Shown here: positions 1-60,390 of the stretch, in pieces
Layout of the letters: each line of letters begins with the position of its first letter
Position numbering within the stretch: the stretch's first letter is position 1
IMG/VR virus record: IMGVR_UViG_3300034374_004534
Coordinates: 1-60,538 of that record
Direction: 5' to 3' (one strand)
DNA: 60,538 bases
DNA from: a virus
Lineage: Duplodnaviria > Caudoviricetes
The notes under the pieces: generated by a model
Seen by the model: the letters and a program-made list of their open reading frames with translations, nothing else
Database searches by the model: none
Told to the model about the DNA's origin: nothing
Made by a program: the position numbers and the translations under genes

Positions 1-348
1 GCTGAGAAGGGCAAGGATGACGCGGCCACGTGGAAGGACATCATGATGAAGGGCGGATCAGTACAGCATCTGGACTTCCTGTCGAAGGAGGAGAAGGACG
101 TGTTCAAGACGTTTGCTGAGATCTCACAGATGGAGGTGATCCAGCAGGCAGCTGACCGTCAGAAGCTCATCGATCAGGGACAGTCGCTGAATGTAATGAT
201 CAGCGACGAAGTCCCTCTGAAGGACGTCAACCAGCTTGTCATCAAGGCTTGGGAGTTGGGCATCAAGACCCTTTACTATCAGCGCGGTGTCAACCAAGCA
301 CAGGCGGTTGGCCGAGATATCTTAAATTGCGCTGTGTGTGAGGCGTAG
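1..348 (+). CDS. nrdA: Ribonucleotide reductase class Ia alpha subunit, C-terminal fragment (5' truncated)
   Basis: Frame open from base 1; motifs GSVQHL, DQGQSLN, KTLYY and terminal CxxC (CAVCEA). Confidence 0.92.
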   Translation, partial: AEKGKDDAATWKDIMMKGGSVQHLDFLSKEEKDVFKTFAEISQMEVIQQAADRQKLIDQGQSLNVMISDEVPLKDVNQLVIKAWELGIKTLYYQRGVNQAQAVGRDILNCAVCEA

Positions 349-352
349 TGCT

Positions 353-360
353 TATATTTG
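353..360 (+). promoter_or_regulatory. Bacteroidota sigmaA-type -7 box (TATATTTG)
   Basis: Exact TAnnTTTG; 4 nt upstream of the conserved GTTACACGGG element. Confidence 0.7.
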
Positions 361-364
361 CAGA

Positions 365-434
365 GTTACACGGGAATTCGTTCGTGGAACTTTCGCTACG
401 GGGGTCGGCTGCCAATGAAGCAGTCGGCCCTTTT
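365..434 (+). ncRNA. Putative small RNA (5' hairpin plus intrinsic terminator), variant 1
   Basis: GTT-A-CACGGG/TTCGTG-G-AAC hairpin, then GGGTCGGCTGC/GCAGTCGGCCC hairpin and TTTT; counterpart at 60028-60094. Confidence 0.6.
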
Positions 435-436: not shown

Positions 437-733
437 TTATCCCCTGAGCCTGTCGTTCTCTTTCTCCAAGAACTCCAAGCGGACCTTATACTCCGCCAGC
501 TCCTGAAGCACTTGAGAGAGTCTGTCAGCAACCGCGTTCTTCTCATCATAAGCCTGCTCTAGCTTCTCTTCGAGCACAGCTACCCGCTCACGAAGGTCAT
601 CCCTAAACAGAGTCTGTTCTCCCTTATCCTCTTTACGCTCTTGGTGCTTGAGCTTGAGTCTGCTCTGGTAGAACTGCCACGCCCCTGCTGATCCGAGGAC
701 GGTTACGATGGTGATGATTGTTTGCGGATCCAT
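437..733 (-). CDS. Membrane-anchored coiled-coil protein (possible lysis accessory)
   Basis: N-terminal hydrophobic helix then charged heptads; second copy at 60094-60390 differs mostly at synonymous sites, supporting coding. Confidence 0.75.
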   Translation of the reverse strand: MDPQTIITIVTVLGSAGAWQFYQSRLKLKHQERKEDKGEQTLFRDDLRERVAVLEEKLEQAYDEKNAVADRLSQVLQELAEYKVRLEFLEKENDRLRG

Positions 734-1116
734 TATCTCCTGTAAAGCTCTTCGTTAGAAACACGATACAAATTCCAGATGCTCATCGCACAGATCAGGA
801 TCCATCCCAAGTGTGAGCCTTGCATCATCCCTGCCGTCGTGTAGTTGGCGACAGTGGCGATTGAAATAATAGATGCGATTTGAACTGCGATCTTGCGCAT
901 AAAAAGCCTGCCGTCCCACAGGGCACAGTAGACTTGGAAACCACCAGCCAGATGCGCTGCGATCTGCAACAACACCCAAGGGTTACCTAGTTCGAACATA
1001 GCGAACGGGAGAATAGACATGTGCAGCACACCGATCATGAGTTCGTTGGACTCAGAGTCAGTGTATTTCATGATGGCTTTGGCTCTTGCAAGTCCTTTCT
1101 TGTCTCGTAGTGGCAT
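733..1116 (-). CDS. Small multi-pass membrane protein
   Basis: About four hydrophobic segments; TAATG overlaps with neighbours. Confidence 0.7.
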   Translation of the reverse strand: MPLRDKKGLARAKAIMKYTDSESNELMIGVLHMSILPFAMFELGNPWVLLQIAAHLAGGFQVYCALWDGRLFMRKIAVQIASIISIATVANYTTAGMMQGSHLGWILICAMSIWNLYRVSNEELYRR

Positions 1117-2688: not shown

Positions 2689-3122
2689 TTTCTTGCTTTC
2701 TCGATGGTTCTACCAGCGAAATATGCGCCAAATGCTGTTAGCATAAGGATCTCTAACAAAGATACGTAAGAATCCTTGACGTTAAATGGAAGCTGATCCA
2801 AGCTATCTAGCACCATGGTCACCATGAACATGGCCATCAAGCAGATAAGTGTCACAGGACGAATCATTTTCGCCAACTTGACATCGCTGCCCATGTCTGC
2901 CTTCCATCTCTCAGTCACGTTAGATTGGTAAGCCACCTCGGCATCAACGCGAGCTTGAATCTCTGCGGGATCAATGTCAGTAGTAGTATCCAAAAGACTC
3001 TTGACCACACCGAGGGCTCCTCGATCGGGCAACAAGTCTCCAGCTACATCAAGTACAGACGGTGCCTTATCCTTCAGCCACGCACCCAAGCCTGTGTCTT
3101 TAATTTTCTTTTCTTCTTTCAT
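2685..3122 (-). CDS. Holin (3TM/GTA-holin-like)
   Basis: W.ADM.SD..L.K.IRP motif, hydrophobic helices, terminal AYF.GRT.EK. Confidence 0.75.
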   Translation of the reverse strand: MKEEKKIKDTGLGAWLKDKAPSVLDVAGDLLPDRGALGVVKSLLDTTTDIDPAEIQARVDAEVAYQSNVTERWKADMGSDVKLAKMIRPVTLICLMAMFMVTMVLDSLDQLPFNVKDSYVSLLEILMLTAFGAYFAGRTIEKARK

Positions 3123-6100
3123 CGTGTAGGTCTTTCTGGTTTGGGAGGAGTAATCGGTTTGTATCGACCAATGAAGATCCCCTCTGCTTGCTTCTTGCTG
3201 ACGCGAGTGTACTTCTGGATGGTTTCGATGATGGCTTTCTTGCTCACACCCAGTCTGTTAGCTGACATTGCGAACTCGTGCATCTCCTCCTGAGCTGCTC
3301 TGTAAGCATCACGAGCTTGATCAAAGTTCTTGTACTTCAATGAGTTAGCGTCATACAACTTCTCCTTGAACTCCACCATCTTGAATCCAAGTTGCTGATT
3401 TACATCAACTTCGTATGGCTTGAAGCCTGTGAGCTGGCCTCCGACCTCTTCAGGGCTACCGCCTGAGTTGTAGATCTTCCGAACAGATGTGAATGTACCC
3501 GGCTCGATAACCTCATACATGTAGGCCATGACGTCCTGCATCTGCTGAGTCTGAGGAGACTCTGGGTTGTAGATGGGCTTTCCGTAGTCGTTCACGTTTC
3601 TGCTCAAATTGATGAACCGCCTAGTCAAGATCTCCTCACCGAGGAAGGGCTCAATAACTGTGAACAAACCCTTTCCAAATGACTCGATGCTGTCCTCTCC
3701 TCTCATGAATGAGTTGGCGATCTTATCGAAGTGGCCATATGGATCTGAGGCAGAGATGTCGATGTAAGAGAACTTGCCATCCTCCATTGCGTAAGGGATG
3801 ACACGTGAGTTCTGACTCCACGGGGCCATGAACTTCCTGAGATCCTCTTGTCTCTGGTCTTCACCCTCGTCATCCATAGCCCTTCCGACCACCCCCATGA
3901 CGCCTGCGCCGACCGCTTTACCAAACATGCCCGTGACCGCAGCTTTACTAGCAGCGTAGCTTGATGCACCAGCAAGTCTCTGAGCACCAATCTTTCTTAT
4001 CTCTGGGTTGTCTGACTTGATCTCTGAGATGCCCTGAGCCATGGTGTTCCATGCAACTCTGTATGACTCAGCTTGGAAGGACACGAAGTTCCCCATGAAT
4101 GGGAATCGACGAATCATCTGGATGGCCTCTGGCACCCTGCTGTATGTGGGGTAGGTGTTCTTCACCAGCTCTGCCACATAGTTGTCCAGCTCAGCTGATT
4201 GCTCGGGAGTCAGTTGATCTGCCTCTACTCCAAACTGAGCCTTGGCGTAGCGGTTTCTCTCATTCTCGAATGCCACGATCTTAAAGAAGTCATCCTCTGC
4301 CTGATACAGATTCTCAGCTTTCTTCATACCCACACGGGCCTTACGCAAGAGGTTCTGACTTCTGCTCAGGTTCTCGTTGTTCATTCTGTTGGCCAAGGCA
4401 TCATCCATGTTGGCATCCTTGAACATGTCTCTGATTTCACCGAGTGCAGCACTTTGCTTGACGATACCGAGCTCGATGTATCTGTTCATCCTGTCCTGCA
4501 GGGCTTGAGACCCACCCTTCATGTCCGCCTTGAGGGTTTGGTATGCGGTCTCCAGTTGCGTCAGGTCGTAGTGGCCGTTAGCCCACATGAATCCGAGGTT
4601 ACCGATTACGTTCTTGGAGTGAGTTCCAATAGACCCGATAGTCTTAGCCCACTTCACGGTGCCGATGGCAGCCATGTACTTCTTCATGAAGCTACCCATC
4701 TGCTCTGGAACCTTATTGAACTCGGCAGCGATCTCAGGGGTGGTATACATACCGTTGAGCGGAGCCATAGCCTCGCTACCCTCTGATGCAATCTGCACTG
4801 AGTTAGGTCCTGTGGGCTTGTCGAACAACCACACACCCTTGCCGCTCTCTTTAACGGTGTTTAAGAACCGCGCCCCCTCAGCTGTCTGAGCCATCTTCAA
4901 AATCGAAGAGGCATAGTTCTGTGCAGGGTCAGTATACTCACCCATCAAAGCGAGGATCTCTTTGGGGATATCCTTTCTCTGCTTGAGGATGTTTGTGTTC
5001 TTGGTATCGCTAGCCGCAGAGGCAAACGCAGCAGCCTCGTTGGGGTCGAGGTACTTATTCATCAGCCCCTCCACTCTCTTCTCCAAGAATGCCTCGGCAT
5101 CCAGACCCTCAGGGTTGAGCTCAGGGTTGAGGTAGTCGGTCATGGCCATAGCCCTGTTCTGCTCTCTCAAGAAGTTGCGAGCCTCGTTCTTGACCTCTTC
5201 ACTAACCTTGTTCTTCCAGTCCTTGTTGGTGAACACCTCAAAGGATCTGGTCAGGTACTGACCGAGGTTTCCGATAACCTTATCTACTTGAGAATCAGGC
5301 ACAACGCCTAAGTTGATTAAATCAATACTCAACCTGTCGATCTGGTTTCTCATCTCAAGAGCCAACCCAGCGAATTCGTCAGGCAACCGATTCAATCCCT
5401 CGCCACCACGCAGAGCGTCGTCGAAGTCAGCGAGCAACTGATTCTGATCTCCCTTATATCCCCTGAGGAGTCGGTTGAATTCACGGATGTTTTGCTGAGC
5501 AATGTTGGTTTGCTTAGAGATGTTGGCCTCTCTCTTCTCACGGGCAGCAAACATACTCTTGGGCATGAAGCTACGTGCTGAGAAGAAACGGCGACGAAGT
5601 CCGTCAAGCTTTGATCGGATGCCCTTACCCTTGACGTACACCCCTTCTTCCTCCAGCTTTCTTGCGTACTCCTCAGGGTTTACTTGGGGGCCCTGTGCTG
5701 GAGCTGGTTCACTTACAGGTTCTGCCGAAGGTGCTTCTTCAGATACTTCAGCTGCTGGCTCCTCGGCAACTGGCGCAGCTTCCGCAGGCTCCCCAGAGAG
5801 TTCGGCTTCTTTTCTTCTGACGTATTCGTCGTGTTCTCGTTGGAATTCTTCATCCTGTTCAAGTAAGTCGTTTATCTTTTGTTCTTGTTCTGGAGTCTGT
5901 GCTTCGTCAAGCAAGATCTGGTAGGCAGCATCCTGAGCGTCCTGACCTTCAAGCATGATGGTCTTGCCCTCGGCGTCTTTCAATGACACTCTTGTGACAT
6001 TTCCTTCCTCGTCGTACTCAATGCCACGTTCAGGCAGATCCCTTTGAATACCGAATTCGTTGCCCTCGTACAAAATGGTGCCGTCAGGGGTCACCTCAAT

Positions 6101-8008
6101 GTTGGACTTGTCTTCGCTGATATTTAGCTCTGAGATAGGCTTGTCCATCACCTCCTCTGCATTACCGAGATCAATGATTCGGTCCTCTGTCTCGACCACC
6201 ACTCTATCCCCGTACTCCGTGTCTCTTCTGAGCTCACCACGAGTACCGTCTTCCAACACAACAATCCTTCCGAGCTGGTCTGCAACAGCTGGAGCCTCCG
6301 TTTCAGCCACATCTACGTCACCGTCATATCGTGCGTTGATGTTCTCAATCTGCTCGTCGATCTTGGCCAGTCTTCTCTTTGCAGTCTGCGTTCCCTTACC
6401 CTCAAGTTCTTGACGCTCAAGCTCCAAGTCCACCAGCATAGCTCTGTCTTGCTCGCTATACTCGTCAGGTATATCCTTGGAAATCACAGACTTACGCTTC
6501 TTCTTTTCAATCTCTGCTTGAAGCTCTGGGTCGTTGTCAACTTCAATATTTACCTGACTGATTTCATCATCTGACAAGTCTTCTACAAGTTCAGACGCTT
6601 GCTTCTTGCTGACCGCCCCACCGTTAACCTTGTAGGAGCCACGATCCTGAATGGCCGCTGAGGCCAAGGTGACTGGCGTACCAACGACACCAACGGATCC
6701 CTCCATCAAGGCCTCACCAATATCCACTGTCTGACCTGATGCTGTCTGAGCCAACAGTTCACCAGTAACACCAGTGGTCGCCTCACCTGCTGCGGTCTGA
6801 GTCACAACACGAGTCTGTGCCTTACCTGCAGCCTTAGCTGCCTTGGCGCTCCTAGAGAGAACAGCTCCACCGAAGCTGTCGACAAAGCCAATGGTTCCTG
6901 CACGAAGAGCTGATCTCTTGCGGATCTGACGAAGCTTAGACTCATCCATAAGGATGGGGGCTACGTTCTCGTAGGTGAATTCCTTGTCCCCCAACTCCTC
7001 TTTAAGGAAGTCAACGAATGACATGCCCATCTCTACGGTGGCACCAGCCATACCAAGTGCAGGCGTCAAGCTCAAACCAAATCCAGCAACAGCCCCAGCC
7101 CCAGAGGTGACTGGCGCAAGCGGTCCACCAGCCAAGCCCGCCGTAGCACCAGCTGCTGTTCCTGCAGACACCATGGCGAGCGCATTCTCAGCAGACTCCC
7201 TGTTCATCATGCCAGATGTTGAGCTAACCAACGTCTCCAGAAGTCCTTGAGGGTGTTCTGCCGAAGCAACGAGGAATCCCCAGACCCCTCCGCCGTTCAA
7301 CTCTTGTGTAGCAGCAAAGGACTCGGCCTCGTCAGAGACACCGACTTCCCTCATACGGGCGTCATAGTCGTTTACTTGATTGACGAGAGACTGAATGGTC
7401 TCTTCTGTAGGGGTGATGTCCCCAATGGCCATAGAGAAAGAGAATGGGACGATATCCCCTGTAGCTTGCCCCTGACCCCACGCTCTAGCCGCGTCATCAA
7501 ATACGTCTCCCAGAATTGGGATAGAGTTAACCATGTCCCCAAACGCCCCGTCAAGATACTGAGTCTCAGCACCTTCGATGGTTACGTCAAAGGCTGGTGT
7601 GGGGGATGCCCCTGCGTAGGTTAAGTAACTAGGCTCTACTGTAGCTGAACCCGAATCTCCACTCGGTTCTTGTTGACCCTGACTCGTATCTGAGGTAGAC
7701 CCCGTAGAAGCCCCTTCCGAATCGGGTGCCAAGATAGGCTGTGCGGTTCTTGCCCCAAATTGAACGGGCGGAATGTCCGCTTTGTCTTTTTTTTTTACGT
7801 TGAAGAACTGAGAGTAGAACTCATCAGGTGACTTCGTGTACAACCCCTGACCAGAGACCGCATCAAACAATGCCTTCTGAGATTCAGGTGTGGAGAACTG
7901 CATAGAGAACTCCTCGTAAGACTTGGTGTACAGCCCCTGCTCATTCAGGCCCTCGTAAAGACCCTTATGAGCTTGGCTGAATCCTTCTTTTTTATTTGGA
8001 TCCGTCAT
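3119..8008 (-). CDS. Large internal virion/ejection protein (C-terminal region resembles large polyvalent protein domains)
   Basis: 1629 aa; N-terminal duplicated LY...GLYTKS..EF..QF, Gly/Ala-rich hydrophobic segment, acidic linker, C-terminal DDFFK/FPFMGNFVSF region; follows tail genes. Confidence 0.7.
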   Translation of the reverse strand: MTDPNKKEGFSQAHKGLYEGLNEQGLYTKSYEEFSMQFSTPESQKALFDAVSGQGLYTKSPDEFYSQFFNVKKKDKADIPPVQFGARTAQPILAPDSEGASTGSTSDTSQGQQEPSGDSGSATVEPSYLTYAGASPTPAFDVTIEGAETQYLDGAFGDMVNSIPILGDVFDDAARAWGQGQATGDIVPFSFSMAIGDITPTEETIQSLVNQVNDYDARMREVGVSDEAESFAATQELNGGGVWGFLVASAEHPQGLLETLVSSTSGMMNRESAENALAMVSAGTAAGATAGLAGGPLAPVTSGAGAVAGFGLSLTPALGMAGATVEMGMSFVDFLKEELGDKEFTYENVAPILMDESKLRQIRKRSALRAGTIGFVDSFGGAVLSRSAKAAKAAGKAQTRVVTQTAAGEATTGVTGELLAQTASGQTVDIGEALMEGSVGVVGTPVTLASAAIQDRGSYKVNGGAVSKKQASELVEDLSDDEISQVNIEVDNDPELQAEIEKKKRKSVISKDIPDEYSEQDRAMLVDLELERQELEGKGTQTAKRRLAKIDEQIENINARYDGDVDVAETEAPAVADQLGRIVVLEDGTRGELRRDTEYGDRVVVETEDRIIDLGNAEEVMDKPISELNISEDKSNIEVTPDGTILYEGNEFGIQRDLPERGIEYDEEGNVTRVSLKDAEGKTIMLEGQDAQDAAYQILLDEAQTPEQEQKINDLLEQDEEFQREHDEYVRRKEAELSGEPAEAAPVAEEPAAEVSEEAPSAEPVSEPAPAQGPQVNPEEYARKLEEEGVYVKGKGIRSKLDGLRRRFFSARSFMPKSMFAAREKREANISKQTNIAQQNIREFNRLLRGYKGDQNQLLADFDDALRGGEGLNRLPDEFAGLALEMRNQIDRLSIDLINLGVVPDSQVDKVIGNLGQYLTRSFEVFTNKDWKNKVSEEVKNEARNFLREQNRAMAMTDYLNPELNPEGLDAEAFLEKRVEGLMNKYLDPNEAAAFASAASDTKNTNILKQRKDIPKEILALMGEYTDPAQNYASSILKMAQTAEGARFLNTVKESGKGVWLFDKPTGPNSVQIASEGSEAMAPLNGMYTTPEIAAEFNKVPEQMGSFMKKYMAAIGTVKWAKTIGSIGTHSKNVIGNLGFMWANGHYDLTQLETAYQTLKADMKGGSQALQDRMNRYIELGIVKQSAALGEIRDMFKDANMDDALANRMNNENLSRSQNLLRKARVGMKKAENLYQAEDDFFKIVAFENERNRYAKAQFGVEADQLTPEQSAELDNYVAELVKNTYPTYSRVPEAIQMIRRFPFMGNFVSFQAESYRVAWNTMAQGISEIKSDNPEIRKIGAQRLAGASSYAASKAAVTGMFGKAVGAGVMGVVGRAMDDEGEDQRQEDLRKFMAPWSQNSRVIPYAMEDGKFSYIDISASDPYGHFDKIANSFMRGEDSIESFGKGLFTVIEPFLGEEILTRRFINLSRNVNDYGKPIYNPESPQTQQMQDVMAYMYEVIEPGTFTSVRKIYNSGGSPEEVGGQLTGFKPYEVDVNQQLGFKMVEFKEKLYDANSLKYKNFDQARDAYRAAQEEMHEFAMSANRLGVSKKAIIETIQKYTRVSKKQAEGIFIGRYKPITPPKPERPTR

Positions 8009-10602: not shown

Positions 10603-10610
10603 CAAATATA
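10603..10610 (-). promoter_or_regulatory. -7 promoter box TATATTTG
   Basis: TATATTTG-CAAC-ATG. Confidence 0.7.
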
Positions 10611-10617: not shown

Positions 10618-11565
10618 TCACTTAGAGTGGTCTAAGTCAGTTTGTTCGTAGTTAAGGTTTAATGCATAGAGCTCAAAGTCCTGAGCGCCAAGAGTAAAGT
10701 GGGCTTCAGCGAACTGCCCTCTCATCATGTCACCCGCATGGCGAGGATCAATCAAAGCAAACACAGTCAATCCCGATTCTGCAGTCTGAGAGATAAGACC
10801 CGCCAAAGCTGGGATGGCACCGACAGCAGTAGCCTTGACCACAATGCCGTCGTTCTGATACGCAGACTTCAATCCGACCGACTCAAGATCTTCGGTGCTA
10901 GCAATGTTGATGCTGCATCTTACGTCGTTGTACATCATCCCCTGCTGGATGGCCTCTTGCTGGCCACCATAGATGGATACAATGTTGGCTGCACGAGGGC
11001 TCTTAAAGACAAGTTTTGTTCTGTTGACTGCCCCCTGACCAACGCCCACGGCAAGCCCAGAGATAGGGAGCTTGTACAAGTTGTTGCCCAAAGAGTTTTC
11101 CATCAAATCAAAGCCCTTTCTGAAGAACATGTGACCCATGTACTTGAGGTCTGCAGTGGGTCTAATCCTAGGGTCCTTACCGAGGTGAGCGTACTTGTTT
11201 CCTCCGTAGTTGCTAATCAGTCCTGCACTCACATACTCCCTGCGACCAGATGGGCTGATGAAGTCACTGGTAGTAAACAAGTTAACTCCATTCTTGTATT
11301 CGCCAGCTCCCTCGATAGACATCGACTTGTAGAGTTTATTCTGGGATGGGTTGGCAGAGAAAGCTACAGCTACTGTTGATGGGTATGTGTTTCCATAGAA
11401 GCTGTTGTTGGTCCCGACGTTGTGCCTCCAAGCGACACTCCCATCATTGATCAACTTATTTGATGAGAAGAACTTCTTGTCGATGTTGGAGTAGTTAGAA
11501 GCAATGTAATCGTACTTCGACGTCCACACATTGTTCTTGTTGCTAAAGCCTATGGTCTTCTTCAT
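10618..11565 (-). CDS. Tail protein, probably the separated C-terminal part of the tail stabilisation protein
   Basis: Begins TIGF....N.WTS.Y.Y, ends MRGQF...FELYALN; resembles the C-terminal block of crAss-like stabilisation proteins. Confidence 0.55.
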   Translation of the reverse strand: MKKTIGFSNKNNVWTSKYDYIASNYSNIDKKFFSSNKLINDGSVAWRHNVGTNNSFYGNTYPSTVAVAFSANPSQNKLYKSMSIEGAGEYKNGVNLFTTSDFISPSGRREYVSAGLISNYGGNKYAHLGKDPRIRPTADLKYMGHMFFRKGFDLMENSLGNNLYKLPISGLAVGVGQGAVNRTKLVFKSPRAANIVSIYGGQQEAIQQGMMYNDVRCSINIASTEDLESVGLKSAYQNDGIVVKATAVGAIPALAGLISQTAESGLTVFALIDPRHAGDMMRGQFAEAHFTLGAQDFELYALNLNYEQTDLDHSK

Positions 11566-14500
11566 GATGATGGAGTTACTGTGAATGTTCCGCCGAGGGA
11601 GCTGTTAAGCGTTCCCGTCAAGTCGTTGGCTGCAGCAAAGGCCGCTTCAACATCTTCCACAGCGATAGAGTAGATGTCTGCTCCCACGTAGTCCTCAAGG
11701 GTGTTGGTTAGCTGAAAGTTTTCGAAGTTCCAGATAGTTCCGCTTGGATTTTCCTCGGGGCCAAATCCAGATCCAGAAAAGCTATCTAGGGGCTGCTGCA
11801 CGATCGCTCTCATGTCAGAGATAGCATTGTGCAATCCAACAAGAAGGGACATACCAGTTTGTCTAAAGCCTTGAGGGAAGTTTGGCTCACCTTGGTAATA
11901 GGTCGTGTTGTATGATGAGAAGAAGTCAGCTGGTGTTAGAGCGTCTGGACCAAGTCCCTCGAATTCAATTTCCCCTAAGTAGGTTCCAGTTGAAGATGTC
12001 TCACCACCTTCATATCTACCCAAGAATCTCTGAAACTGAACAACTCTAGCTACCGCGTTTTCTGAACTATCCACGATACTCAGTAGACCAGCAATGTTTG
12101 CTCCAAATGGATATTCATTAGACGCTTCAAATACTAACCCTTTTGCGAAGTCATTTGCCTCGTTAAAACCCTCAAAGTCGTCTGCATAGAGTCCACTGAA
12201 GTCCAAGAACTTCTGCTTGGCGTCTGAGAGAACTGACTGAAGGTTTCTAATGCCTTCTGCCACGCTAACCCCAGTACCGCTTTCATTCAAAACGTTTGAG
12301 AAAGCATTGATCACATCAATAACGTCCTGATCTGTTCCTGACTCAAGCTTAGTCATCCACCCTTGAAGAATGTCTGTATTGCTGCCCTCCGATGTGTCGA
12401 ATCCTTGGAACTCACCCACTGTATTGGCAGTGGCGTTGAGGAATGTAGTAATCGGTCCTCTGAGTGCATCGGCAACTGGCTCGACTGCTCCAAATACAGA
12501 CTCAAGATCTGCGGTAAACTCAGCTACAATTTCTGATGCAAATACGATTTCGCTAAGGTCAATCTGACCATCTTCGTTTTCGTCAAAAGCATTAAGGATA
12601 GTGGCAGCAGAAGGAACTGAATCCACTCCAATCTCATTCAGGAGCCCTGCAATAGGAGCTGGGATTTGATTCACGACATCAGGCTTCCCCGCCAAGTTGT
12701 AAGTAGCGTTGAGTCCGTTGAAGGCCTGAGTAAGAAGAGCGTCTCTAGTTACCTCAAGCGAAGCGATGTTCGCGCTCTGAGATGTGATGAGTGACTCAAA
12801 CTGAGTGTCTTTGTAGTTCTGGATTCCATCCTCCAAGTTCGCTGAAACCAGAGACTCAAGGTCAGTTGTGTAACTGTTCAGAGTATCTTCAAGCTGAGTG
12901 AGCCCTTCGTTTGAAGCGTTGTAGAGTGATTCAATAACGCTTTCAGACACGCCGTTGTAGTTGATTCCAAACAACCTTGTAACAGAACCCCCACCCTGAT
13001 TAGCAGCTTGAGTGTTGTAGATGGCGCTAACAACCTGAGAGATCTGAGTCAAGATGTCGTTTTTATCAGCACTAACTGCACTAATCGTGCTGGAAAGCGA
13101 TGTTGTCACTTGGGCACCAGAAGTACTAAGGATAAGATCCATGGCGTTAAGGAACGCCGACATATCTGAAATGAAGCTCGGGTTTTCGTAAATGGCAGAC
13201 CCAATCGGAATATCAGAAGACGGATCATCGTCATTCAGAGAGTTGGTCGTAGGAATACCAAACCCAATCTTATAGTCGGTAAATGCACCACCGCTTCTCA
13301 GGGAGTAGGATCCCTGATCTTCGTTAAAAAGGCCAGCGTTAGCCTGAGCTTGTCCATGGTAAGCAAGCATGAGCTCAAGGAAATCCTCTTTGCTCACGTT
13401 CGCTCCAGCTGGGGCAATGTTGGGGAAATGATTCGCCTGAAGTGGGACAGCTATAGAGGCGTCTTCTGAAATATTTGTCGTAGCCTGACCAATTGCGACG
13501 GTCATCTGCAGGGCACTGGTGTTAAGGCTGTCTCTGATCTGCTCATGAGACGCACTGGCTGAGCTAAGCTGCCCAGTAATTGTAGCCTCGTTGTCGTTTA
13601 GAGATCCTTCAAGCAAACCAACAAACTCATTAAGAGCATTTACGGTTACTTCACCTCCAGTAAGAGATGAGATGGCATCCTCAAAACCTGTGATTTCAGA
13701 ATCAAGGTTATCGACAAAAGTGGTCAGCTCTACAGTAAGCTCATCGACACTTGGTGCACCCTCTTCGTTGATCACATTGACGATTGCATCGTAGAGAGAT
13801 CCGACCTGCCCAAGCAAAATTTCATTTTGCTCTTCGAGCGCATCCAATACATCCTGATCAATAACAGGACCAACCACGCCATCTCCACCTTCCTCTTCTT
13901 CGCCTTCACCATTTGTCGGGTTGACTGGATCGTCTTGAACAGTAGATCCTGACTCCTGAAGAACCTCGACATCTCCAGAGAAACTCAAGGTCACGGCATT
14001 GTACACACTGAGTACGTACTCGTCGAGGATGGGGTCGTATCCACCAACAACTCTGACCTGACCAGAGTTAAGTGACGAGTCAATGGCCGACTGGAAGAGC
14101 TCCCTGAAGTACGACTTCATGCCCTTCTCAGAGATGATCTGAACACCGTTGGCTGGGTTGAACTTGTATACCTCTTGCTTCTCCTTGTTTGCGAAGTACA
14201 AGCTCTCCCCCACCTTGGCCACCGATTCAGGGTTGGTGCTACAACCATTGTCTCCCGCATAGAAAGACTGAGTTCCGATAACTTTCTCTGATGCTACGAT
14301 CAACTCCTGACCAGTGAGGTCCGAGATGACACTGCGAGCGATTGGGAGGGCGCTGACCTTCTCCTCGTTCAGAACGAAAATAGAGTCTCCAAAATCAACG
14401 ATCTTGGAAATCTGACCATGCTTATTGGGAAGATCCTTAAAGTTGCTTGTAGTGGCGTCAAACGTCGTGTATCGCAAGACAGGTGAAGACAGGCTGTTGA

Positions 14501-17500
14501 AGTCCGAGAAGGTCACAGAGGAATCTCTGCGAATCTCCTTTTGGAATCGGTTCATTACCTTGGGGCGCCCGTAATCATATTGGTCCGCACCAGAGATAAC
14601 GTCTGTAAACGTCTTGCTTTCAACATAGTAGTCCAAAAACTTGGGGCTGCTAGTGCCTACATCCCTAATAAGGTTTAGGAATCTCTCCTGCTGTACGTTG
14701 TACGAAGGCATGGCTAGTGCAGTTCGTCTAAACCACACGTCACCGTTCTGAAGAACAATCTGGTTGTTCTCCCAGCTGGGCACCCCACCATCTCTAATCA
14801 CGTTGTACTTGCGAGAGATCTCGTAGTAGACCCTGTTCTCAATATCCTGATTGTTGATAGGGCTGTAGATCTCAAAGACGCATCTGTTGTTCCACAGGTG
14901 AGCGTTAGAGGCAGAAGGGGAGGTGCCGTTACCGCTTTGAGCTGACTTCACATAGTCAAACGAGAATCCAGTTGCGCTGGGGTTGTCTCTCAAAACCAAG
15001 AACTGACCAACCTTCGAGGGGATGGCTGGAGGGTTGTCTTGGTTGATAAGCGGGTTGTCCTCGTCATCAGCAAGGTTGACCAGACCGACTACATCAAACT
15101 CATATGCAGTGGGGTACACCCTGTTAGACTGGTTCGAGTAATAAGAGATGATCCGCAGCTTGTCACCCTCCTTGTAGTTGTACAGGTCCTTGGTTCCAAT
15201 TGTAGATACAGCCCCGAAAGACTCAGCGTAAGACACGTCTCTGTTCTCCTGAAGGTAGTTGAGGGAAACGTAGATGTTTCCGTTCGTTCCTTCGTTGGCG
15301 TGCTCAATGAACGCCCCACCAGCAGTGTACTGAATGAAGTCATCAACAGTGCTGTTGCCTCCGTAAACGATTTGATAGTGCCATGCCCACGACGGGGGAG
15401 AGCTGTTCAAGTTGACTTGAATGCTTACTGGCCCCTGAGCAACTCCGTTATCGTACCCGTCAACATACGTACTCCCCAGAGGCACCACGTCGGTGGATCT
15501 ACCTCTCTGGTCGTAGAACACGATGCCGAAGTCGTGAGTGGCCTTTGTCTTAAAGGACCTGCTAGCAGTGCTGCCCGTGTTGGGAGGAACAGTTATAGCA
15601 TCAAATGAGGTTACCTCAACGATTGCAGACTCTCTTTCGAGGATGGGGTCGTCAGCATCAGCAGCAGCTGAGTCCGACCACATGTCAATCGACGTAACAG
15701 CATTCTGATCATTTGGGACGAAGAGCAACGGCATGTTCCAGCTAGACTGACCCATAGCGTCCTTGAAAACTGAAGACTCAAAAGACCCGATGAATGGTGC
15801 GTATCCCATAACGATACACTTGTGGGTAACACTTCCAAAGTCAAGGCCTTTGTAGTTAACTCCTGCAAGTTCGCCAGAGTCCTTCCCGCTTGCTCCAGCC
15901 TCTCCGTCAAGTGTAGAGAATGCAAACTGGAAGAAAGCGTCTTCACGTTGGATGATCTCAATATCATCAAACTCTTGAGCATCAGCAGCGAACCTGCTGA
16001 ATGTATGAATCAGTGCTTGTTCTCCACTGTATGCAAATGAGAACACCCCATCAAGTCTCTCAACTTGAGTCCGTGTTGTTCCTGCGGGGATGAGACCACC
16101 AAACCACCTTTTGATTTGAGTGACGTCAATCTCATCCTCAAGAGTCCCATAGATGCCGTTAAGTTCAACTGAATCAATCAATGGGTCCAATCCACTAACG
16201 ATGAATGCGGCTTGAGAGCCGAGGTGAGTGAACATACCCCCAGCACCTGTTGCACCTAGCTCTGGGGCGCTAAGATCCCCAAGCTCAAACTGAATGAAAT
16301 CAGGAGTCAAGCATACCCATCCGTCAAAGATGTTTCCAAACTGGAGATCAAGTTCACCGCCTTGGGCATTAGTCAAAAAGACGTCAGCCCAGTTGGAAAT
16401 TCTATCGCCCACCCCTTCGCTCATATCCACATCGGGGATGCAAGTGAAGATCTCTGGGTTCTGGATGTCGACCAAGTCAAGAGCAAAGAATGAATTGTCC
16501 TGATTGCCATACTCGGACAAGGCGTACTGATCAGAGATATCTCTAAGTGTAAAGCTTGGTGTGGCCTTGTTCACAATAAAGAAACCGCATGGCTGCACGC
16601 CCCTTGAATCAGCAGCCTCGATTGCACTGTAGTCACCGACAGCATTGATCAGCTTAGTCCTGTAGTCGGGAGACCCGAAGACATTCAGCTTATCCTTGTT
16701 GGAGATGTTCAAGTCGATGTCGTACTGAGCAACGTTGTTTACAGAGATGGTGTCGATCAGAGGGATAGAAACGGGGTTTCCGTTAACTACTTGAGAATCA
16801 AACAAAGACGAGTCTCCTCTGAGATAGTTGCCAGTGAGGAGGTCTCTGATAATCAGAGATAGTCTCTCACGTGAGATGTCGAGCAATGTGCTGAATGAAG
16901 CGCCGAACTCAAGTGGTCTCCCCTGAATGATGAATGGGTTGTGTGCCGAAGTACCGTAAGTAACATCGATCTCACCTTCATTCGTGAACGCAGGAGCCCA
17001 ACGAGGCATAGCTTCGTCGATAGAGTTTGCCGTTCTGTATGGAATCTCTGCAATAGACCGTCTTTTAAGACCAGACGTTTGCTCTGCTACAGAAGGAAGG
17101 TCGATACCACCTCCCTGAAGACTAGGGAAGAACGAAGCTCCTCCAGCAGCCATGCCAACAGTCTCATTTCCCATGTCAATGAAGAGACCCTGATGCTCAA
17201 CCGATTGAGCGATGTGGCCCTCGGTACCATCACCGAGCTTGGTGAGCTGAGCACTTCCGTGGTAGCTGTTGCGTGACTCGTAGAAGTGGAAGTTATTGTC
17301 TGGGCTTACGTTCAGGTTGAAGATAACCTGAGTGCCAGCGGCAATGCTGTCAGGCAGTCCAGATGTATCCAGCTTGTATGCAGAAACCCTGTTGTGGGGA
17401 GAGGTGTCATCCGTAGAGTCGTTGACCTGTCTGATCTCTGGAATAACTTCCAGCTGAAGGGAGATAAAGTCGGTAGGTCTCTCAGCAAATCCGTGATTGA

Positions 17501-18566
17501 TAGTAGCGTCAACATCGGGTACGTCGAACCCCTCAACGTAGTTTGCGTAGAAGAGTCGGTTATTGGTGATGTCTTGGGTGCGTGCCTTCTTGGGGACCGC
17601 ATCAAAGTGGCGACGAGTCTCCCCAACAGGAAGAGCCGTGTAGATCTCATCGTTGTAGAACTTAGAAGAGACACTGCCTCCGCTGTAGTCTACCTCGTCT
17701 GCAATCAGCCACGCACCTGTGTTGCCGCTTCTTACCAAGATTCTAACGCGAGACACCTCTGAGGTGAATGCGTTATCTGGGATGTTGAGCTGGATGTAGT
17801 TCTCAGAGAAGAAGTTAGGGTTGGGCTGAGCACCCTGATTCAAGTAGGCAGATGGAACCGCCAGAGTAGAGTAAGTGCTGAGCGCACTCACGTCTCCAGA
17901 CTTATATACGTTCTGGTATGCAAACTGAAATCCCCTCTCCCCCTTGAAGTTGCTGACCTTGTAGGTCGGATCGTTCTGGAAGCTCCACTGAGGTGGGTCA
18001 ACAGGAGTTCTAGGGCAGACAGAAACAAAGTCCAAGAACTGCAAACCAGATCCAGCTTCGGAAGCTCTCTGGACATCAATCTTCTTCGGCTCCGTATGGT
18101 TGTCAGTGAAGAACAGGATGGGCTTCAAGTCGGTCCCCCCAACCACTGAGTTAGGGATATACACCACGTTGCCGTCAACGTAAGAGTTGCCCCTAAAGTT
18201 GAACAGCTCAGATGAGAGCAACTTCTGCAGGTTGTTGCCCGAAGTGTCGTAGAAGTAAACACCTGACTGTGAGCCATTTGGGCTGTACACAAAGTAGTAG
18301 ATGCGGCCAGCACGCTCGTCGTTGCAGCTTCCGATAACCTTAGACCCAGTGGCAAGGCCGTGATCGGTAAGGTTTGTCACAGCCGAGTTGCCCTTGACTG
18401 GCTTCAAGACGCCGAAGTTTCCAGTGGCTGTTTCTACGCCTGAGGAGAACTCTCCATTGTTGTCGTCAATAGTTACGTTGACCGCATCCAGCATCTCATC
18501 CTGCTGGTGTAAACGTGTATCCTTGCTCGAATTGAGTCTTCTGGGAAATACTTTATCTATTGCCAT
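11562..18566 (-). CDS. Tail stabilisation/muzzle protein (P22 gp10-like, crAss-like) with long C-terminal extension
   Basis: 2334 aa; LFFTDN..EPKKID, NRLFYANYVEG, FGIVFYDQRGRS, YAGDNG.STNPES, GGYDP..DEY motifs. Confidence 0.8.
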   Translation of the reverse strand: MAIDKVFPRRLNSSKDTRLHQQDEMLDAVNVTIDDNNGEFSSGVETATGNFGVLKPVKGNSAVTNLTDHGLATGSKVIGSCNDERAGRIYYFVYSPNGSQSGVYFYDTSGNNLQKLLSSELFNFRGNSYVDGNVVYIPNSVVGGTDLKPILFFTDNHTEPKKIDVQRASEAGSGLQFLDFVSVCPRTPVDPPQWSFQNDPTYKVSNFKGERGFQFAYQNVYKSGDVSALSTYSTLAVPSAYLNQGAQPNPNFFSENYIQLNIPDNAFTSEVSRVRILVRSGNTGAWLIADEVDYSGGSVSSKFYNDEIYTALPVGETRRHFDAVPKKARTQDITNNRLFYANYVEGFDVPDVDATINHGFAERPTDFISLQLEVIPEIRQVNDSTDDTSPHNRVSAYKLDTSGLPDSIAAGTQVIFNLNVSPDNNFHFYESRNSYHGSAQLTKLGDGTEGHIAQSVEHQGLFIDMGNETVGMAAGGASFFPSLQGGGIDLPSVAEQTSGLKRRSIAEIPYRTANSIDEAMPRWAPAFTNEGEIDVTYGTSAHNPFIIQGRPLEFGASFSTLLDISRERLSLIIRDLLTGNYLRGDSSLFDSQVVNGNPVSIPLIDTISVNNVAQYDIDLNISNKDKLNVFGSPDYRTKLINAVGDYSAIEAADSRGVQPCGFFIVNKATPSFTLRDISDQYALSEYGNQDNSFFALDLVDIQNPEIFTCIPDVDMSEGVGDRISNWADVFLTNAQGGELDLQFGNIFDGWVCLTPDFIQFELGDLSAPELGATGAGGMFTHLGSQAAFIVSGLDPLIDSVELNGIYGTLEDEIDVTQIKRWFGGLIPAGTTRTQVERLDGVFSFAYSGEQALIHTFSRFAADAQEFDDIEIIQREDAFFQFAFSTLDGEAGASGKDSGELAGVNYKGLDFGSVTHKCIVMGYAPFIGSFESSVFKDAMGQSSWNMPLLFVPNDQNAVTSIDMWSDSAAADADDPILERESAIVEVTSFDAITVPPNTGSTASRSFKTKATHDFGIVFYDQRGRSTDVVPLGSTYVDGYDNGVAQGPVSIQVNLNSSPPSWAWHYQIVYGGNSTVDDFIQYTAGGAFIEHANEGTNGNIYVSLNYLQENRDVSYAESFGAVSTIGTKDLYNYKEGDKLRIISYYSNQSNRVYPTAYEFDVVGLVNLADDEDNPLINQDNPPAIPSKVGQFLVLRDNPSATGFSFDYVKSAQSGNGTSPSASNAHLWNNRCVFEIYSPINNQDIENRVYYEISRKYNVIRDGGVPSWENNQIVLQNGDVWFRRTALAMPSYNVQQERFLNLIRDVGTSSPKFLDYYVESKTFTDVISGADQYDYGRPKVMNRFQKEIRRDSSVTFSDFNSLSSPVLRYTTFDATTSNFKDLPNKHGQISKIVDFGDSIFVLNEEKVSALPIARSVISDLTGQELIVASEKVIGTQSFYAGDNGCSTNPESVAKVGESLYFANKEKQEVYKFNPANGVQIISEKGMKSYFRELFQSAIDSSLNSGQVRVVGGYDPILDEYVLSVYNAVTLSFSGDVEVLQESGSTVQDDPVNPTNGEGEEEEGGDGVVGPVIDQDVLDALEEQNEILLGQVGSLYDAIVNVINEEGAPSVDELTVELTTFVDNLDSEITGFEDAISSLTGGEVTVNALNEFVGLLEGSLNDNEATITGQLSSASASHEQIRDSLNTSALQMTVAIGQATTNISEDASIAVPLQANHFPNIAPAGANVSKEDFLELMLAYHGQAQANAGLFNEDQGSYSLRSGGAFTDYKIGFGIPTTNSLNDDDPSSDIPIGSAIYENPSFISDMSAFLNAMDLILSTSGAQVTTSLSSTISAVSADKNDILTQISQVVSAIYNTQAANQGGGSVTRLFGINYNGVSESVIESLYNASNEGLTQLEDTLNSYTTDLESLVSANLEDGIQNYKDTQFESLITSQSANIASLEVTRDALLTQAFNGLNATYNLAGKPDVVNQIPAPIAGLLNEIGVDSVPSAATILNAFDENEDGQIDLSEIVFASEIVAEFTADLESVFGAVEPVADALRGPITTFLNATANTVGEFQGFDTSEGSNTDILQGWMTKLESGTDQDVIDVINAFSNVLNESGTGVSVAEGIRNLQSVLSDAKQKFLDFSGLYADDFEGFNEANDFAKGLVFEASNEYPFGANIAGLLSIVDSSENAVARVVQFQRFLGRYEGGETSSTGTYLGEIEFEGLGPDALTPADFFSSYNTTYYQGEPNFPQGFRQTGMSLLVGLHNAISDMRAIVQQPLDSFSGSGFGPEENPSGTIWNFENFQLTNTLEDYVGADIYSIAVEDVEAAFAAANDLTGTLNSSLGGTFTVTPSS

Positions 18567-20207: not shown

Positions 20208-20210
20208 CTG

Positions 20211-22320: not shown

Positions 22321-22342
22321 TTCTTTCGTAATAGATCAAGTA

Positions 22343-35097: not shown

Positions 35098-35115
35098 GAT
35101 TGTTTATTTAATTTG

Positions 35116-59300: not shown

Positions 59301-59535
59301 ACTCAGCGCCTACTACCTGATTGCTTGCGACAGAGTCCACCAAGTGGTGGATGAATTGTACGAGACCCTTCATAACGAGAAAGGAGAACCGATTCAGATT
59401 TCTGAGGCGGTCATCGATATCGTGGCCAAAAGTCGGAAGGAGATTTATGAAGAATTGGATATGATCAAATCAATCGTCGCAGAATATGAAGCTTTACAAA
59501 GTAGAGGTAACAACGGAGATGATCCGAAAGGCTGA
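59287..59535 (+). CDS. Hypothetical protein
   Basis: ORF overlapping neighbours in operon. Confidence 0.55.
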   Translation: METSRLSAYYLIACDRVHQVVDELYETLHNEKGEPIQISEAVIDIVAKSRKEIYEELDMIKSIVAEYEALQSRGNNGDDPKG

Positions 59536-60004
59536 GGAGAAGTCCAAGCTGCACGGAGACATCAAGAACAGCATACGCCGAGGCGATGGAAACATGGCCG
59601 CTTACATAGGCGAAGAGATGGCACTGAAGTTTCTCAGTGACGTCAAGGAGAAGAACACCTACGATTACGACATGATTCGGTTCCCCAATACACCATGGGA
59701 GCACACGATCGATGTCAAGACCAAAGAGAGAGGGGTGAGTAAAGCAGGCAAGGCCTACGTCCCTAGGGGTCACTACTCCGTCCACGTAACAGAGGCATCA
59801 CTGCACCAGAGGGTAGACACATACGTGTTCGCACAAGTGAACCGAGTCAAAGAAGGATATGAGGGGTGGATCCTAGGCTGGATGGATCGAGACGAATACC
59901 TCAAGAAAGCAGAGGTTGTGAAGGAGGGTCAGCCAGATGAGTATGGTAAGCCAGAAACAGCCGATGCTAGAAAAATGAAGATCTCAGAGATCATTCACTA
60001 TTGA
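59486..60004 (+). CDS. PD-(D/E)xK-fold hypothetical protein
   Basis: GE, YD, IDVKT, Y.F, .GW. Confidence 0.55.
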   Translation: MKLYKVEVTTEMIRKAEEKSKLHGDIKNSIRRGDGNMAAYIGEEMALKFLSDVKEKNTYDYDMIRFPNTPWEHTIDVKTKERGVSKAGKAYVPRGHYSVHVTEASLHQRVDTYVFAQVNRVKEGYEGWILGWMDRDEYLKKAEVVKEGQPDEYGKPETADARKMKISEIIHY

Positions 60005-60015: not shown

Positions 60016-60023
60016 TATCTTTA
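60016..60023 (+). promoter_or_regulatory. -7 box variant TATCTTTA
   Basis: 4 nt before GTTACACGGG, the same geometry as 353-360. Confidence 0.55.
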
Positions 60024-60027: not shown

Positions 60028-60094
60028 GTTACACGGGTTAGTTGTCTGTGGAACTTCGCAATCGTCGAGAGGGGACTTCGGTCCCCTTTCTTTT
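60028..60094 (+). ncRNA. Putative small RNA, variant 2
   Basis: GTT-A-CACGGG/TCTGTG-G-AAC hairpin, TTCGC, then GAGAGGGGAC-TTCG-GTCCCCTTTC and T-run. Confidence 0.6.
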
Positions 60095-60390
60095 TATCCT
60101 CGAAGGCGATCGTTCTCCTTCTCAAGGAACTCCAGACGCACCTTGTATTCAGCGAGCTCTGTCATCACAGCTGCGAGCCTATCAGACACTTCGTTCTTCT
60201 CTTTATATGCTTGCTCAAGCTTTTCCTCAAGCACGGCAACACGCTCTCTCAAATCGTCTCTAAATAGCGTTTGCTCGCCCTTATCCTCTTTGCGCTCTTG
60301 GTGTTTGAGCTTGAGTCTGCTCTGGTAAAACTGCCAAGCCCCAGCAGAGCCGAGGACAGTTACGATTGTGATGATTGTTTGAGGATCCAT
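60094..60390 (-). CDS. Diverged copy of 437-733
   Basis: Same 98-aa protein with a handful of substitutions and many synonymous changes. Confidence 0.8.
   Translation of the reverse strand: MDPQTIITIVTVLGSAGAWQFYQSRLKLKHQERKEDKGEQTLFRDDLRERVAVLEEKLEQAYKEKNEVSDRLAAVMTELAEYKVRLEFLEKENDRLRG

What the first reader, a model, noticed from the sequence alone, without database searches (positions are those of the whole stretch)
353..434. Conserved promoter-driven small RNA revealed by two diverged variants
At 353-434 and 60016-60094 the flanking intergenic DNA differs, yet both copies have a -7 box, exactly 4 nt, then GTTACACGGG-loop-(TTC/TCT)GTGGAAC-T(T)TCGC and an intrinsic terminator. Substitutions in the 5' hairpin keep the pairing (G-C versus G-U). 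The loops differ and the two terminators are unrelated in sequence. No ORF is present. This is the pattern expected of an independent RNA gene of about 70 nt under structural selection, placed where the two transcription arms converge. Function unknown.
Basis: partly seen in the sequence, partly recalled or inferred. Interest (0 to 1): 0.8.

Follow-up and report, generated by a model that had tools for sequence, protein, structure and literature searches.

The report
Accessory small-RNA cassette of Bacteroidota podophages
A short, strongly conserved promoter-hairpin-terminator cassette with no open reading frame, most likely a roughly 70-nt small RNA gene of unknown target, sits at the end of the replication arm in about half of a clade of uncultured ~60-kb phages of Bacteroidota.

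Summary
Both sites have a Bacteroidota-type -7 box, 4 nt, GTTACACGGG-loop-YYGTGGAAC-TT(T)CGC, then a + strand intrinsic terminator.

The two "copies" are one locus. The record's right end re-reads its left end from a second strain, and 10 of 10 near-complete relatives that carry the element hold exactly one.

The same anatomy recurs in 36 IMG/VR contigs, in 79 of 80 fetched metagenome loci and in one MAG contig.

Six phage genes have the same box exactly 4 nt before a leaderless ATG. This places +1 on G365/G60028.

The element is accessory. Ten near-complete relatives lack it.

Covariation is weak. One stem pair shows G-C/G-U/A-U and one shows G-C/G-U; the other pairs never vary. Selection therefore acts mainly on primary sequence.

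I found no Rfam family, CRISPR-repeat origin, in-phage target, partner gene or transcript evidence.

Best reading: an independently transcribed phage small RNA of 62-77 nt acting in trans, function unresolved. It is a new RNA family of a known kind.

The parts
353..360 (+). -7 box TATATTTG (sigma-ABfr type TAnnTTTG), variant A
   Evidence: One search shows the same box 4 nt before the ATG of six - strand genes. The consensus is quoted from a passage in the Introduction of PMC7366714.
365..390 (+). Predicted +1 (G365) and 5' stem-loop GUUACACGGG-AAUUCG-UUCGUGGAAC, variant A
   Evidence: Pair states are given.
391..399 (+). Conserved single-stranded linker UUUCGCUAC, variant A
   Evidence: unpaired in the minimum-free-energy fold.
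400..434 (+). Intrinsic terminator: 13-bp GC-rich hairpin plus U-run, variant A
   Evidence: It is detected on the + strand only.
60016..60023 (+). -7 box TATCTTTA, variant B
60028..60054 (+). Predicted +1 (G60028) and 5' stem-loop GUUACACGGG-UUAGUUG-UCUGUGGAAC, variant B
60055..60066 (+). Conserved single-stranded linker UUCGCAAUCGUC, variant B
60067..60095 (+). Intrinsic terminator: 10-bp hairpin plus U-run, variant B
1..348 (+). 3' end of the ribonucleotide reductase large-subunit gene, the upstream neighbour in variant A. Its stop codon lies 4 nt before the box.
   Evidence: PF02867, E 1.6e-21.
59486..60004 (+). 172-aa gene with no family hit, the upstream neighbour in variant B
437..733 (-). 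98-aa converging last gene of the - strand (structural/late) arm. Its diverged second copy lies at 60094-60390.

Best explanation
The element is a self-contained, accessory small-RNA gene of an uncultured clade of ~60-kb podophages of Bacteroidota.

Proposed mechanism:
1. The host primary sigma factor reads the TAnnTTTG-type -7 box and starts transcription 5 nt downstream, at the G of GUUACAC.
2. The transcript ends at the intrinsic terminator, giving an RNA of about 62-77 nt.
3. The RNA has three parts. First, a 5'-terminal stem-loop made of a GU(U)/AAC clamp, an invariant A.G mismatch and a 5-bp CACRG/CYGUG stem, with a free-to-vary loop of 6-11 nt. Second, a roughly 10-nt single-stranded invariant linker CUU(U)CGC(A/U)(A/G). 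Third, a terminator hairpin of any sequence.
4. Both stem arms, the mismatch and the linker are fixed in sequence while the loop and terminator drift. I therefore infer that the RNA acts in trans through sequence-specific recognition. It would bind a protein as a hairpin-plus-tail handle (slightly favoured), or base-pair through the linker with a host RNA.
5. The upstream replication-arm mRNA has no terminator of its own, so it also ends at this terminator and carries the hairpin in its 3' UTR.

Shown here: the anatomy, conservation, strand bias, single copy per genome, accessory distribution and cassette-like mobility between contexts.

Inferred: that it is transcribed from its own promoter, that the RNA is the functional product, and its mode of action.
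For: - Motif: 2 matches in the window against 0 in each of 100 shuffles.
- Folds: the full 88- and 85-nt stretches fold into two hairpins on the + strand (z -4.45 and -2.82). The - strand folds are weaker (z -2.26 and -0.92).
- Completeness of the anatomy: of 176 pattern matches in all held loci, 156 have box plus hairpin plus T-run, 13 have box plus hairpin with a decayed U-tract, 6 lie too near a locus end to judge, and 1 lacks a box.
- Spacing: among the 79 distinct variants kept by a filter that required a box 4 or 5 nt upstream, 78 have 4 nt and 1 has 5 nt.
- Promoter calibration: six - strand genes have the same box exactly 4 nt before the ATG (boxes at 45024, 43349, 30335, 27326, 20176 and 10610). 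Two more have it at 5 and 2 nt.
- Pair states: pair 8 shows A-U 38, G-U 37 and G-C 4. Pair 9 shows G-C 76 and G-U 3. The G-U pairs would be C.A mismatches on the - strand.
- Terminator polarity: terminator-like sites are found on the + strand only.
- Consistent fold: 24 of 25 distinct variants fold as 5' hairpin, unpaired linker and terminator.
- Copy number: one copy per genome in 10 of 10 near-complete carriers.
- Context: at least 4 kinds of upstream gene. The downstream gene is on the + strand in 13 of 25 variants and absent or converging in 12 of 25.
- Recombination: L033 and L021 share the upstream gene end and the box but carry different hairpin types, terminators and downstream DNA.
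- Coding: no ORF is conserved between the two copies.
Against: - No transcript evidence. The only RNA run offered had no contig over the element, which is uninformative.
- Covariation is not significant. Five of 9 modelled pairs never vary, 0 pairs change on both sides relative to the commonest pair, and 86 of 500 shuffles reach the observed score. The tenth modelled pair is unpaired in 20 of 25 variants, and one variant breaks the outer clamp.
- My DNA patterns fixed most stem bases, which biases the sample. The helicase-anchored sample searched with the covariance model was not so biased and found no other stem sequences. Half-relaxed patterns did not either.
- Seven of the 25 distinct variants depart from TAnnTTTG at the seventh or eighth box base.
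- Thirteen matches have a decayed U-tract.
- No complementary site in the phage genome scores above shuffled controls.
- The 12-mer complementary to the linker occurs at chance level in 81 Bacteroidota genomes.
- No gene co-occurs with the element in 11 carrier versus 10 non-carrier genomes.
Confidence: 0.6

Rival explanations
1. The element is a cis-acting 3'-end module of the replication-arm operon. The conserved hairpin plus the terminator would form the stable or processed 3' end of the upstream mRNA and insulate the converging late genes. The box would add little or nothing.
For: - The upstream + strand ORF ends 13-47 nt before the box in 23 of 25 variants. No other terminator was seen there in the sequences read.
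- The terminator works in the + direction only.
- In the window the element sits exactly where the arms converge.
Against: - The box keeps TAT[AC]TT and a 4-nt spacing in 78 of the 79 distinct variants that passed the box filter, although the DNA upstream of it is unrelated in at least 4 contexts.
- The geometry equals that of six real leaderless promoters of the same phage.
- Ten near-complete relatives end the arm without the element.
- A structural 3' end would tolerate compensatory changes, yet the stem sequence is fixed.
Confidence: 0.15
2. The element is a promoter-proximal leader or attenuator for downstream accessory genes. This would resemble the short terminated transcripts upstream of lambdoid late genes, or put/nut-type antitermination RNAs. 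A factor would bind the hairpin and let RNA polymerase read through the terminator.
For: - In 13 of 25 distinct variants a + strand gene starts within about 70 nt after the modelled core. It is often an M43-type peptidase.
- Some variants have a decayed U-tract.
Against: - In 12 of 25 variants, including both in this window, nothing on the + strand follows. Read-through would be antisense to late genes.
- In the variants whose downstream DNA I read, the + strand gene has its own TAnnTTTG box after the terminator.
- A relative (L085) expresses the same peptidase gene from such a box without the element.
Confidence: 0.08
3. The element is a DNA-level site. It could be a conserved linker for homologous recombination between modules (PeSL-like), a binding site for a phage or host DNA-binding protein, or an origin or packaging signal.
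For: - It lies at the border of a hypervariable region, and many contigs break there.
- A recombinant pair, L033 and L021, switches partners inside it.
- The arms GTTACAC and GTGGAAC form an imperfect inverted repeat.
Against: - There is one copy per genome, not many.
- Ten near-complete relatives lack it, so it is not an essential origin or packaging site.
- The arm spacing varies: the hairpin is 26 to 28 nt in most variants and 29 in one. That is awkward for a dimeric DNA binder.
- Pairing is kept through G-U, which counts only in RNA of the + strand.
- This reading does not explain the box and the U-run.
- In two records that IMG/VR classes as having direct terminal repeats, the element is interior.
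Confidence: 0.1
4. The element is an RNA anti-CRISPR: a solitary repeat unit that mimics the host's CRISPR repeat and misassembles Cas proteins.
For: - It is a solitary hairpin-forming unit in a phage with its own promoter. The conserved block is about 32-36 nt and begins GTT. This is the layout described for Racrs in the abstract of PMC10651486, seen in the search listing.
Against: - An exact scan of one genome for each of 185,579 species gave 17 loci. Sixteen are unrelated single matches and one is a phage-like contig. None is an array.
- In 401 genomes of the phylum of a Saprospiraceae MAG, matches with up to 2 mismatches number 0-7 per genome. The reversed-pattern control gives about the same.
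- The host is unknown, so this remains inconclusive.
Confidence: 0.05

Closest known systems
Phage- or prophage-encoded trans-acting small RNAs, and sRNAs with their own promoter that share the terminator of the upstream gene (3'-UTR 'type I' sRNAs such as DapZ and MicL; these names are recalled, not read here)
   Same: Own promoter directly after or inside the upstream gene's end, a shared intrinsic terminator, a length of 60-80 nt, a 5' hairpin, a short conserved single-stranded stretch and no ORF.
   Different: No transcript or target is shown. The host phylum lacks the usual chaperones (recalled). Both stem arms are invariant rather than covarying. It matches no Rfam family.
PeSL (promoter-early stem-loop) cassettes of T4-type phages (PMC2839356, passages read; PMC4122927, abstract read)
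   Same: A small composite of host-type promoter and stem-loop terminator at the edge of a hyperplastic region. Recombinants switch partners within it.
   Different: PeSLs occur in many copies per genome and flank ORFans, and they hold no conserved transcribed hairpin of their own. Here there is one copy per genome, and a conserved 38-nt transcribed segment lies between the promoter and the terminator.
RNA anti-CRISPRs, i.e. solitary repeat units (PMC10651486, abstract seen in the search listing)
   Same: A solitary, promoter-driven, hairpin-forming non-coding unit in a phage genome.
   Different: No CRISPR repeat resembling it was found.
Short terminated promoter-proximal transcripts of lambdoid late operons and put/nut antitermination RNAs (recalled)
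   Same: A promoter, a short structured RNA and an intrinsic terminator upstream of genes, in about half of the variants.
   Different: The downstream genes read have their own promoter box. Half of the variants have no downstream gene.

Membership tests
Any Rfam 15 family | Match to a curated covariance model | tested here: not met
   At the gathering threshold the whole window gave only tRNA-Arg. With E up to 10 on 300-480 there were four chance-level hits on the terminator or flank, all at 12.2 bits or less and far below their cut-offs.
Independently transcribed bacterial/phage sRNA gene | Own promoter at a fixed distance from the 5' end | tested here: met
   At sequence level only. The box TAT[AC]TTNR has a 4-nt spacer in 78 of the 79 distinct variants that passed the box filter. 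The same geometry is seen before six leaderless genes.
Independently transcribed bacterial/phage sRNA gene | Intrinsic terminator on the same strand | tested here: met
   for the window. Of 176 matches, 156 have a hairpin plus a run of at least 3 T, and 13 have a decayed U-tract.
Independently transcribed bacterial/phage sRNA gene | Discrete transcript with defined ends | tested here: inconclusive
   One metatranscriptome run was offered. Only contigs are kept for it, and none covers the element.
Structured RNA under structural selection | Compensatory base-pair changes above controls | tested here: inconclusive
   90.7% of cells are paired, against 26-58% when the partners are slid. However, 86 of 500 shuffles reach the observed score and 5 of 9 pairs are invariant. 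Pair 8 has three standard types.
Base-pairing sRNA | Conserved complementary target | tested here: not met
   In the phage genome the best non-self duplex is -25.1 kcal/mol, against -22.9 to -30.9 for shuffled queries. The 12-mer complement gave 34 matches in 25 of 81 Bacteroidota genomes, no more than the reversed control. The real host is unknown.
PeSL cassettes | Many copies per genome flanking variable ORFs | tested here: not met
   Exactly one strong hit in each of 10 carrier genomes.
PeSL cassettes | Composite promoter plus stem-loop terminator that serves as a recombination junction | tested here: inconclusive
   The composite is present. One clear recombinant pair was seen, L033 versus L021. 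No mini-circles or frequencies can be tested.
RNA anti-CRISPR (solitary repeat unit) | Sequence similarity to a CRISPR repeat of the host | tested here: not met
   No array-like multiplicity was found. The host is not identified, so the test is incomplete.
Antitermination/attenuator leader | Downstream genes on the same strand that depend on read-through | tested here: not met
   Twelve of 25 variants have no + strand gene downstream. Downstream genes read carry their own box, and L085 has the peptidase gene without the element.

The most novel reading that the evidence does not exclude
The RNA is a decoy 'handle'. Its invariant hairpin with the A.G mismatch, plus the CUUCGC tail, would copy the protein-binding module of a host RNA, for example the guide or scaffold RNA of a Bacteroidota defence or RNA-processing system. 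It would titrate that protein during infection. This would be an RNA-based counter-defence gene that is gained and lost like other accessory anti-defence genes.

Three findings fit this reading. Sequence rather than structure is fixed. The element is present in about half of close relatives. It moves as a cassette at the edge of the hypervariable region.
Probability: 0.12. Interest if true: 0.8.

Novelty: new member of a known kind. Interest (0 to 1): 0.45.

Why it matters
Non-coding RNAs of phages that infect Bacteroidota are almost unexplored. My two literature searches on the topic listed no paper on a phage-encoded small RNA of this phylum (listings only).

This candidate is short and sharply defined.

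It comes with an internal calibration of the phage's promoters, because the same box sits before leaderless genes. Its 5' end is therefore predicted to the nucleotide and is easy to test.

Its patchy distribution at the edge of a hypervariable region is the pattern shown by host-interaction and anti-defence genes.

If it is only a 3'-end or insulator module, it is ordinary.

Tried and rejected
- **Rfam.** Searches at the gathering threshold and at permissive E-values gave nothing.
- **Expression.** One RNA run (X1, holding 0.06 of the sampled words) was laid on 40539-60538. Three of its listed contigs match + arm genes with no differences. None covers 59215-60538. This says nothing about expression.
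- **Isolated phages.** No record in the 50,697-record collection holds the element; only terminator-like fragments match. The nearest isolates by terminase and primase are Flavobacterium, Cellulophaga and Maribacter podophages at 30-48% identity.
- **CRISPR-repeat origin.** Rejected on present data.
- **In-phage target.** None above shuffled controls.
- **Phylum-wide conserved complement of the linker.** At chance level.
- **Partner protein by presence/absence.** Compared 11 carrier with 10 non-carrier genomes. No gene was present in at least 9 of 11 carriers and at most 1 of 10 non-carriers. The strongest associations are physically adjacent modules, so they reflect linkage.
- **Half-relaxed DNA patterns** meant to find changed stem arms. 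All 15 and all 24 new loci were unrelated coding DNA.
- **T9SS C-terminal domain** on the downstream peptidase of relatives, suspected by eye. NCBIfam did not detect it at E up to 0.01, so I do not use it.
- **Small peptide.** Rejected. The predicted +1 is GUU and no ORF is shared by the two copies.
- **Supplements.** Supplementary files of the papers were not consulted.

Full report
**What the window is**

The window is a complete IMG/VR virus record of 60,538 bp, classed as linear. Genes on the - strand run from about 45,012 down to 437. They include two giant ORFs and a large terminase at 32792-34915. That terminase is 40-48% identical to those of Flavobacterium 'elemo' phages, Cellulophaga podophages and an uncultured 60.8-kb phage.

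Genes on the + strand run from 45,889 to 60,004. They include a primase-helicase with a BT4734-like N-terminal domain and a DnaB-like C-terminal domain. A tRNA-Arg(UCU) gene lies at 35115-35189.

The right end, 60094-60538, is a diverged copy of 437-882. Identity is about 70% near the element and reaches 100% over the last ~140 bases.

Ten of 10 near-complete relatives that carry the element have exactly one copy. A separate 4-kb contig is identical to the right-end version. I therefore read the two 'copies' as one locus seen in two co-assembled strains. In variant A the locus follows a ribonucleotide reductase gene (PF02867). In variant B it follows a 172-aa gene with no family hit.

**The observation**

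- The motif occurs twice in the window and in none of 100 shuffles.
- Both stretches fold on the + strand into a 5' hairpin and a terminator hairpin (z -4.45 and -2.82). The - strand folds are weaker.
- The consensus scan finds terminator-like sites there on the + strand only. This is not a bidirectional terminator.
- Two mechanical ORFs overlap the sites, but neither exists at the other copy.

**The promoter**

The box matches the Bacteroidota primary-sigma -7 consensus TAnnTTTG. That consensus is quoted from a passage in the Introduction of PMC7366714.

The total number of such boxes in the window is not above chance: 24 against 22.3 expected. Their placement is what matters. Of the 19 boxes on the - strand:
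- six lie exactly 4 nt before an ATG that opens a real gene (boxes at 45024, 43349, 30335, 27326, 20176 and 10610);
- one more lies 5 nt before such an ATG, and one lies 2 nt before.

These are leaderless transcription units, so in this phage +1 is the fifth base after the box. In the element that base is G365/G60028, the first base of the conserved block.

**Relatives**

- An exact scan of IMG/VR gave 32 loci. Twenty-two have the full anatomy and 10 are unrelated coding matches.
- To avoid motif bias I fetched 62 loci through the neighbouring helicase and searched them with a covariance model built from 15 variants. Twenty-six loci had a hit.
- Among those hits was a new subtype with CACAGG in place of CACGGG.
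- A relaxed pattern added six more contigs, giving 36 IMG/VR contigs and 25 distinct 54-nt cores.
- The scan of one genome for each of 185,579 species found one true case. It lies in a 12-kb contig of a MAG labelled Parvibaculum, and that contig is probably a phage contig.
Of the 80 loci fetched, 79 look genuine.
- Over all held loci there were 176 matches. Of these, 156 have box, hairpin and T-run; 13 have box and hairpin but a decayed U-tract; 6 lie too near a locus end to judge; 1 lacks a box.
- No isolated phage has the element.

**What is conserved**

These figures come from the 79 distinct variants that passed a filter requiring a box 4 or 5 nt upstream and a T-run downstream.
- The box is TAT[AC]TT[TGCA][GA].
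- The spacer is 4 nt in 78 variants.
- GU(U)ACAC-R-GG, YYGUGGAACUU(U)CGC and an A.G mismatch inside the stem are fixed.
- The loop (6-11 nt), the linker's 3' part and the whole terminator vary.
- Pair 8 is A-U in 38, G-U in 37 and G-C in 4. Pair 9 is G-C in 76 and G-U in 3. The tenth position is mostly G.G.

The formal count on 25 distinct rows gave the following.
- 90.7% of cells are paired, against 26-58% when the partners are slid.
- Five of 9 pairs never vary.
- No pair changes on both sides relative to the commonest pair.
- The covariation score is reached by 86 of 500 shuffles.

Patterns that fixed only one arm plus the tail brought in no genuine member with a changed other arm.

The hairpin is therefore compatible with an RNA stem, and its G-U pairs fit only the + strand. 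Selection, however, is mainly on sequence.

In 24 of 25 variants the minimum-free-energy fold of the predicted RNA (63-80 nt as cut in that script) is 5' hairpin, unpaired linker and terminator.

**An accessory, cassette-like element**

Ten near-complete relatives (94-100% complete) have no hit at E up to 1, apart from one weak match at E 0.128. One of them has a helicase 86% identical to the window's.

The upstream gene is of at least four kinds: two kinds of ribonucleotide reductase, a 69-aa gene and the 172-aa gene. It ends 13-47 nt before the box.

Downstream, 13 of 25 variants have a + strand gene. In the sequences I read it has its own box after the terminator, and it is often an M43-type peptidase. 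The other 12 variants converge with the - strand arm or show no long ORF.

A relative, L085, has the 69-aa gene, one box and the peptidase gene but no element. The element therefore behaves as a roughly 90-bp insertion of hairpin, terminator and second box.

L033 and L021 share the reductase end and the box but differ in hairpin subtype, terminator and downstream DNA. This indicates recombination within the element.

**Search for function**

- No Rfam family matches.
- There is no sign that the hairpin is a CRISPR repeat.
- No complementary site in the phage scores above shuffled controls.
- The linker has no phylum-wide conserved complement.
- A presence/absence comparison of all ORFs in 11 carrier and 10 non-carrier genomes found no gene that tracks the element. 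The strongest associations, positive and negative, are the modules physically next to it.
- The one RNA run offered did not cover the site.

**Reading**

The best-supported explanation is an independently transcribed, accessory small RNA of about 62-77 nt that also serves as the 3' end of the replication-arm mRNA.

Both stem arms, the mismatch and the single-stranded CUUCGC stretch are invariant while the loop is free. I therefore slightly favour recognition by a protein of a hairpin-plus-tail handle over plain seed pairing. Neither is shown.

The rivals are a pure 3'-end or insulator module, an attenuator leader, a DNA-level site and an RNA anti-CRISPR. Each fails to explain at least one tested feature: the fixed box geometry, the variants without a downstream gene, the single copy and loop-length variation, or the absence of a matching repeat.

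**Comparison with what is known**

In layout it works like promoter-bearing small RNAs that share the terminator of the upstream gene, and like a non-coding 'moron'.

It resembles PeSL cassettes of T4-type phages in being a promoter-terminator composite at a plastic region (PMC2839356, passages read; PMC4122927, abstract read). It fails their defining feature of many copies per genome.

It is not a member of any curated RNA family. I rate it a new family of a known kind. Interest is moderate until a transcript and a partner are shown.

Noticed in passing
window 437-882 and 60094-60538: The record's two ends overlap as diverged copies, about 70% identical rising to 100%. The assembly appears to wrap around a ~59.7-kb genome and to join two strains. 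IMG/VR lists the record as linear and 100% complete.
   Followed up: yes
window - strand boxes at 45017-45024, 43342-43349, 30328-30335, 27319-27326, 20169-20176 and 10603-10610: TAnnTTTG boxes lie exactly 4 nt before the ATG of structural-arm genes. Much of the late arm therefore seems to be expressed as leaderless mRNAs from host-type promoters.
   Followed up: partly
window about 20177-20211 and 22291-22325 (- strand): A GC hairpin plus T-run is followed within 5 nt by a TATATTTG box and a leaderless gene. These are PeSL-like terminator-promoter composites inside the late arm.
   Followed up: no
window 45889-60004 (+ strand): Apart from the element's own box at 353, only one strict TAnnTTTG box (54334) lies in the replication arm, against 19 boxes on the - strand. 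The early arm may use few or different promoters.
   Followed up: no
L054:11058-12956 and L048:3920-5926: Relatives carry a secreted M43-type zinc peptidase gene (PF05572) right after the element, followed by further accessory genes. The window lacks these genes.
   Followed up: partly
L100 (12.3-kb contig of a MAG labelled Parvibaculum): This contig carries a complete copy of the element, identical to that of the IMG/VR contig behind L119. It is probably a phage contig binned with an alphaproteobacterial MAG.
   Followed up: no
window 11562-18566 and 3119-8008 (- strand): Two giant ORFs of 2334 and 1629 aa have no Pfam hit. They are poorly shared among relatives, being found in only 3 of 21 genomes (counting the window) at 50% coverage.
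   Followed up: no
window 52972-53122 and 56198-56523: Contigs of a freshwater metatranscriptome run (X1) match these + arm stretches with no differences. This phage or a near-identical one is therefore present in that RNA library.
   Followed up: no
L117, L124, L262, L285 and L324 (13 matches in all): A sub-lineage keeps the box, hairpin and GC terminator stem, but its U-tract has decayed to UUAUU or UCUCUUCAU. Termination may be leaky there.
   Followed up: no
G001-G010 compared with G011-G020: Non-carrier genomes nearly always have an alternative end module of the - strand arm (genes of about 121, 108, 348 and 700-800 aa). It is present in 9 of 10 non-carriers and 1 of 11 carriers. The site borders a swapped module.
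   Followed up: partly
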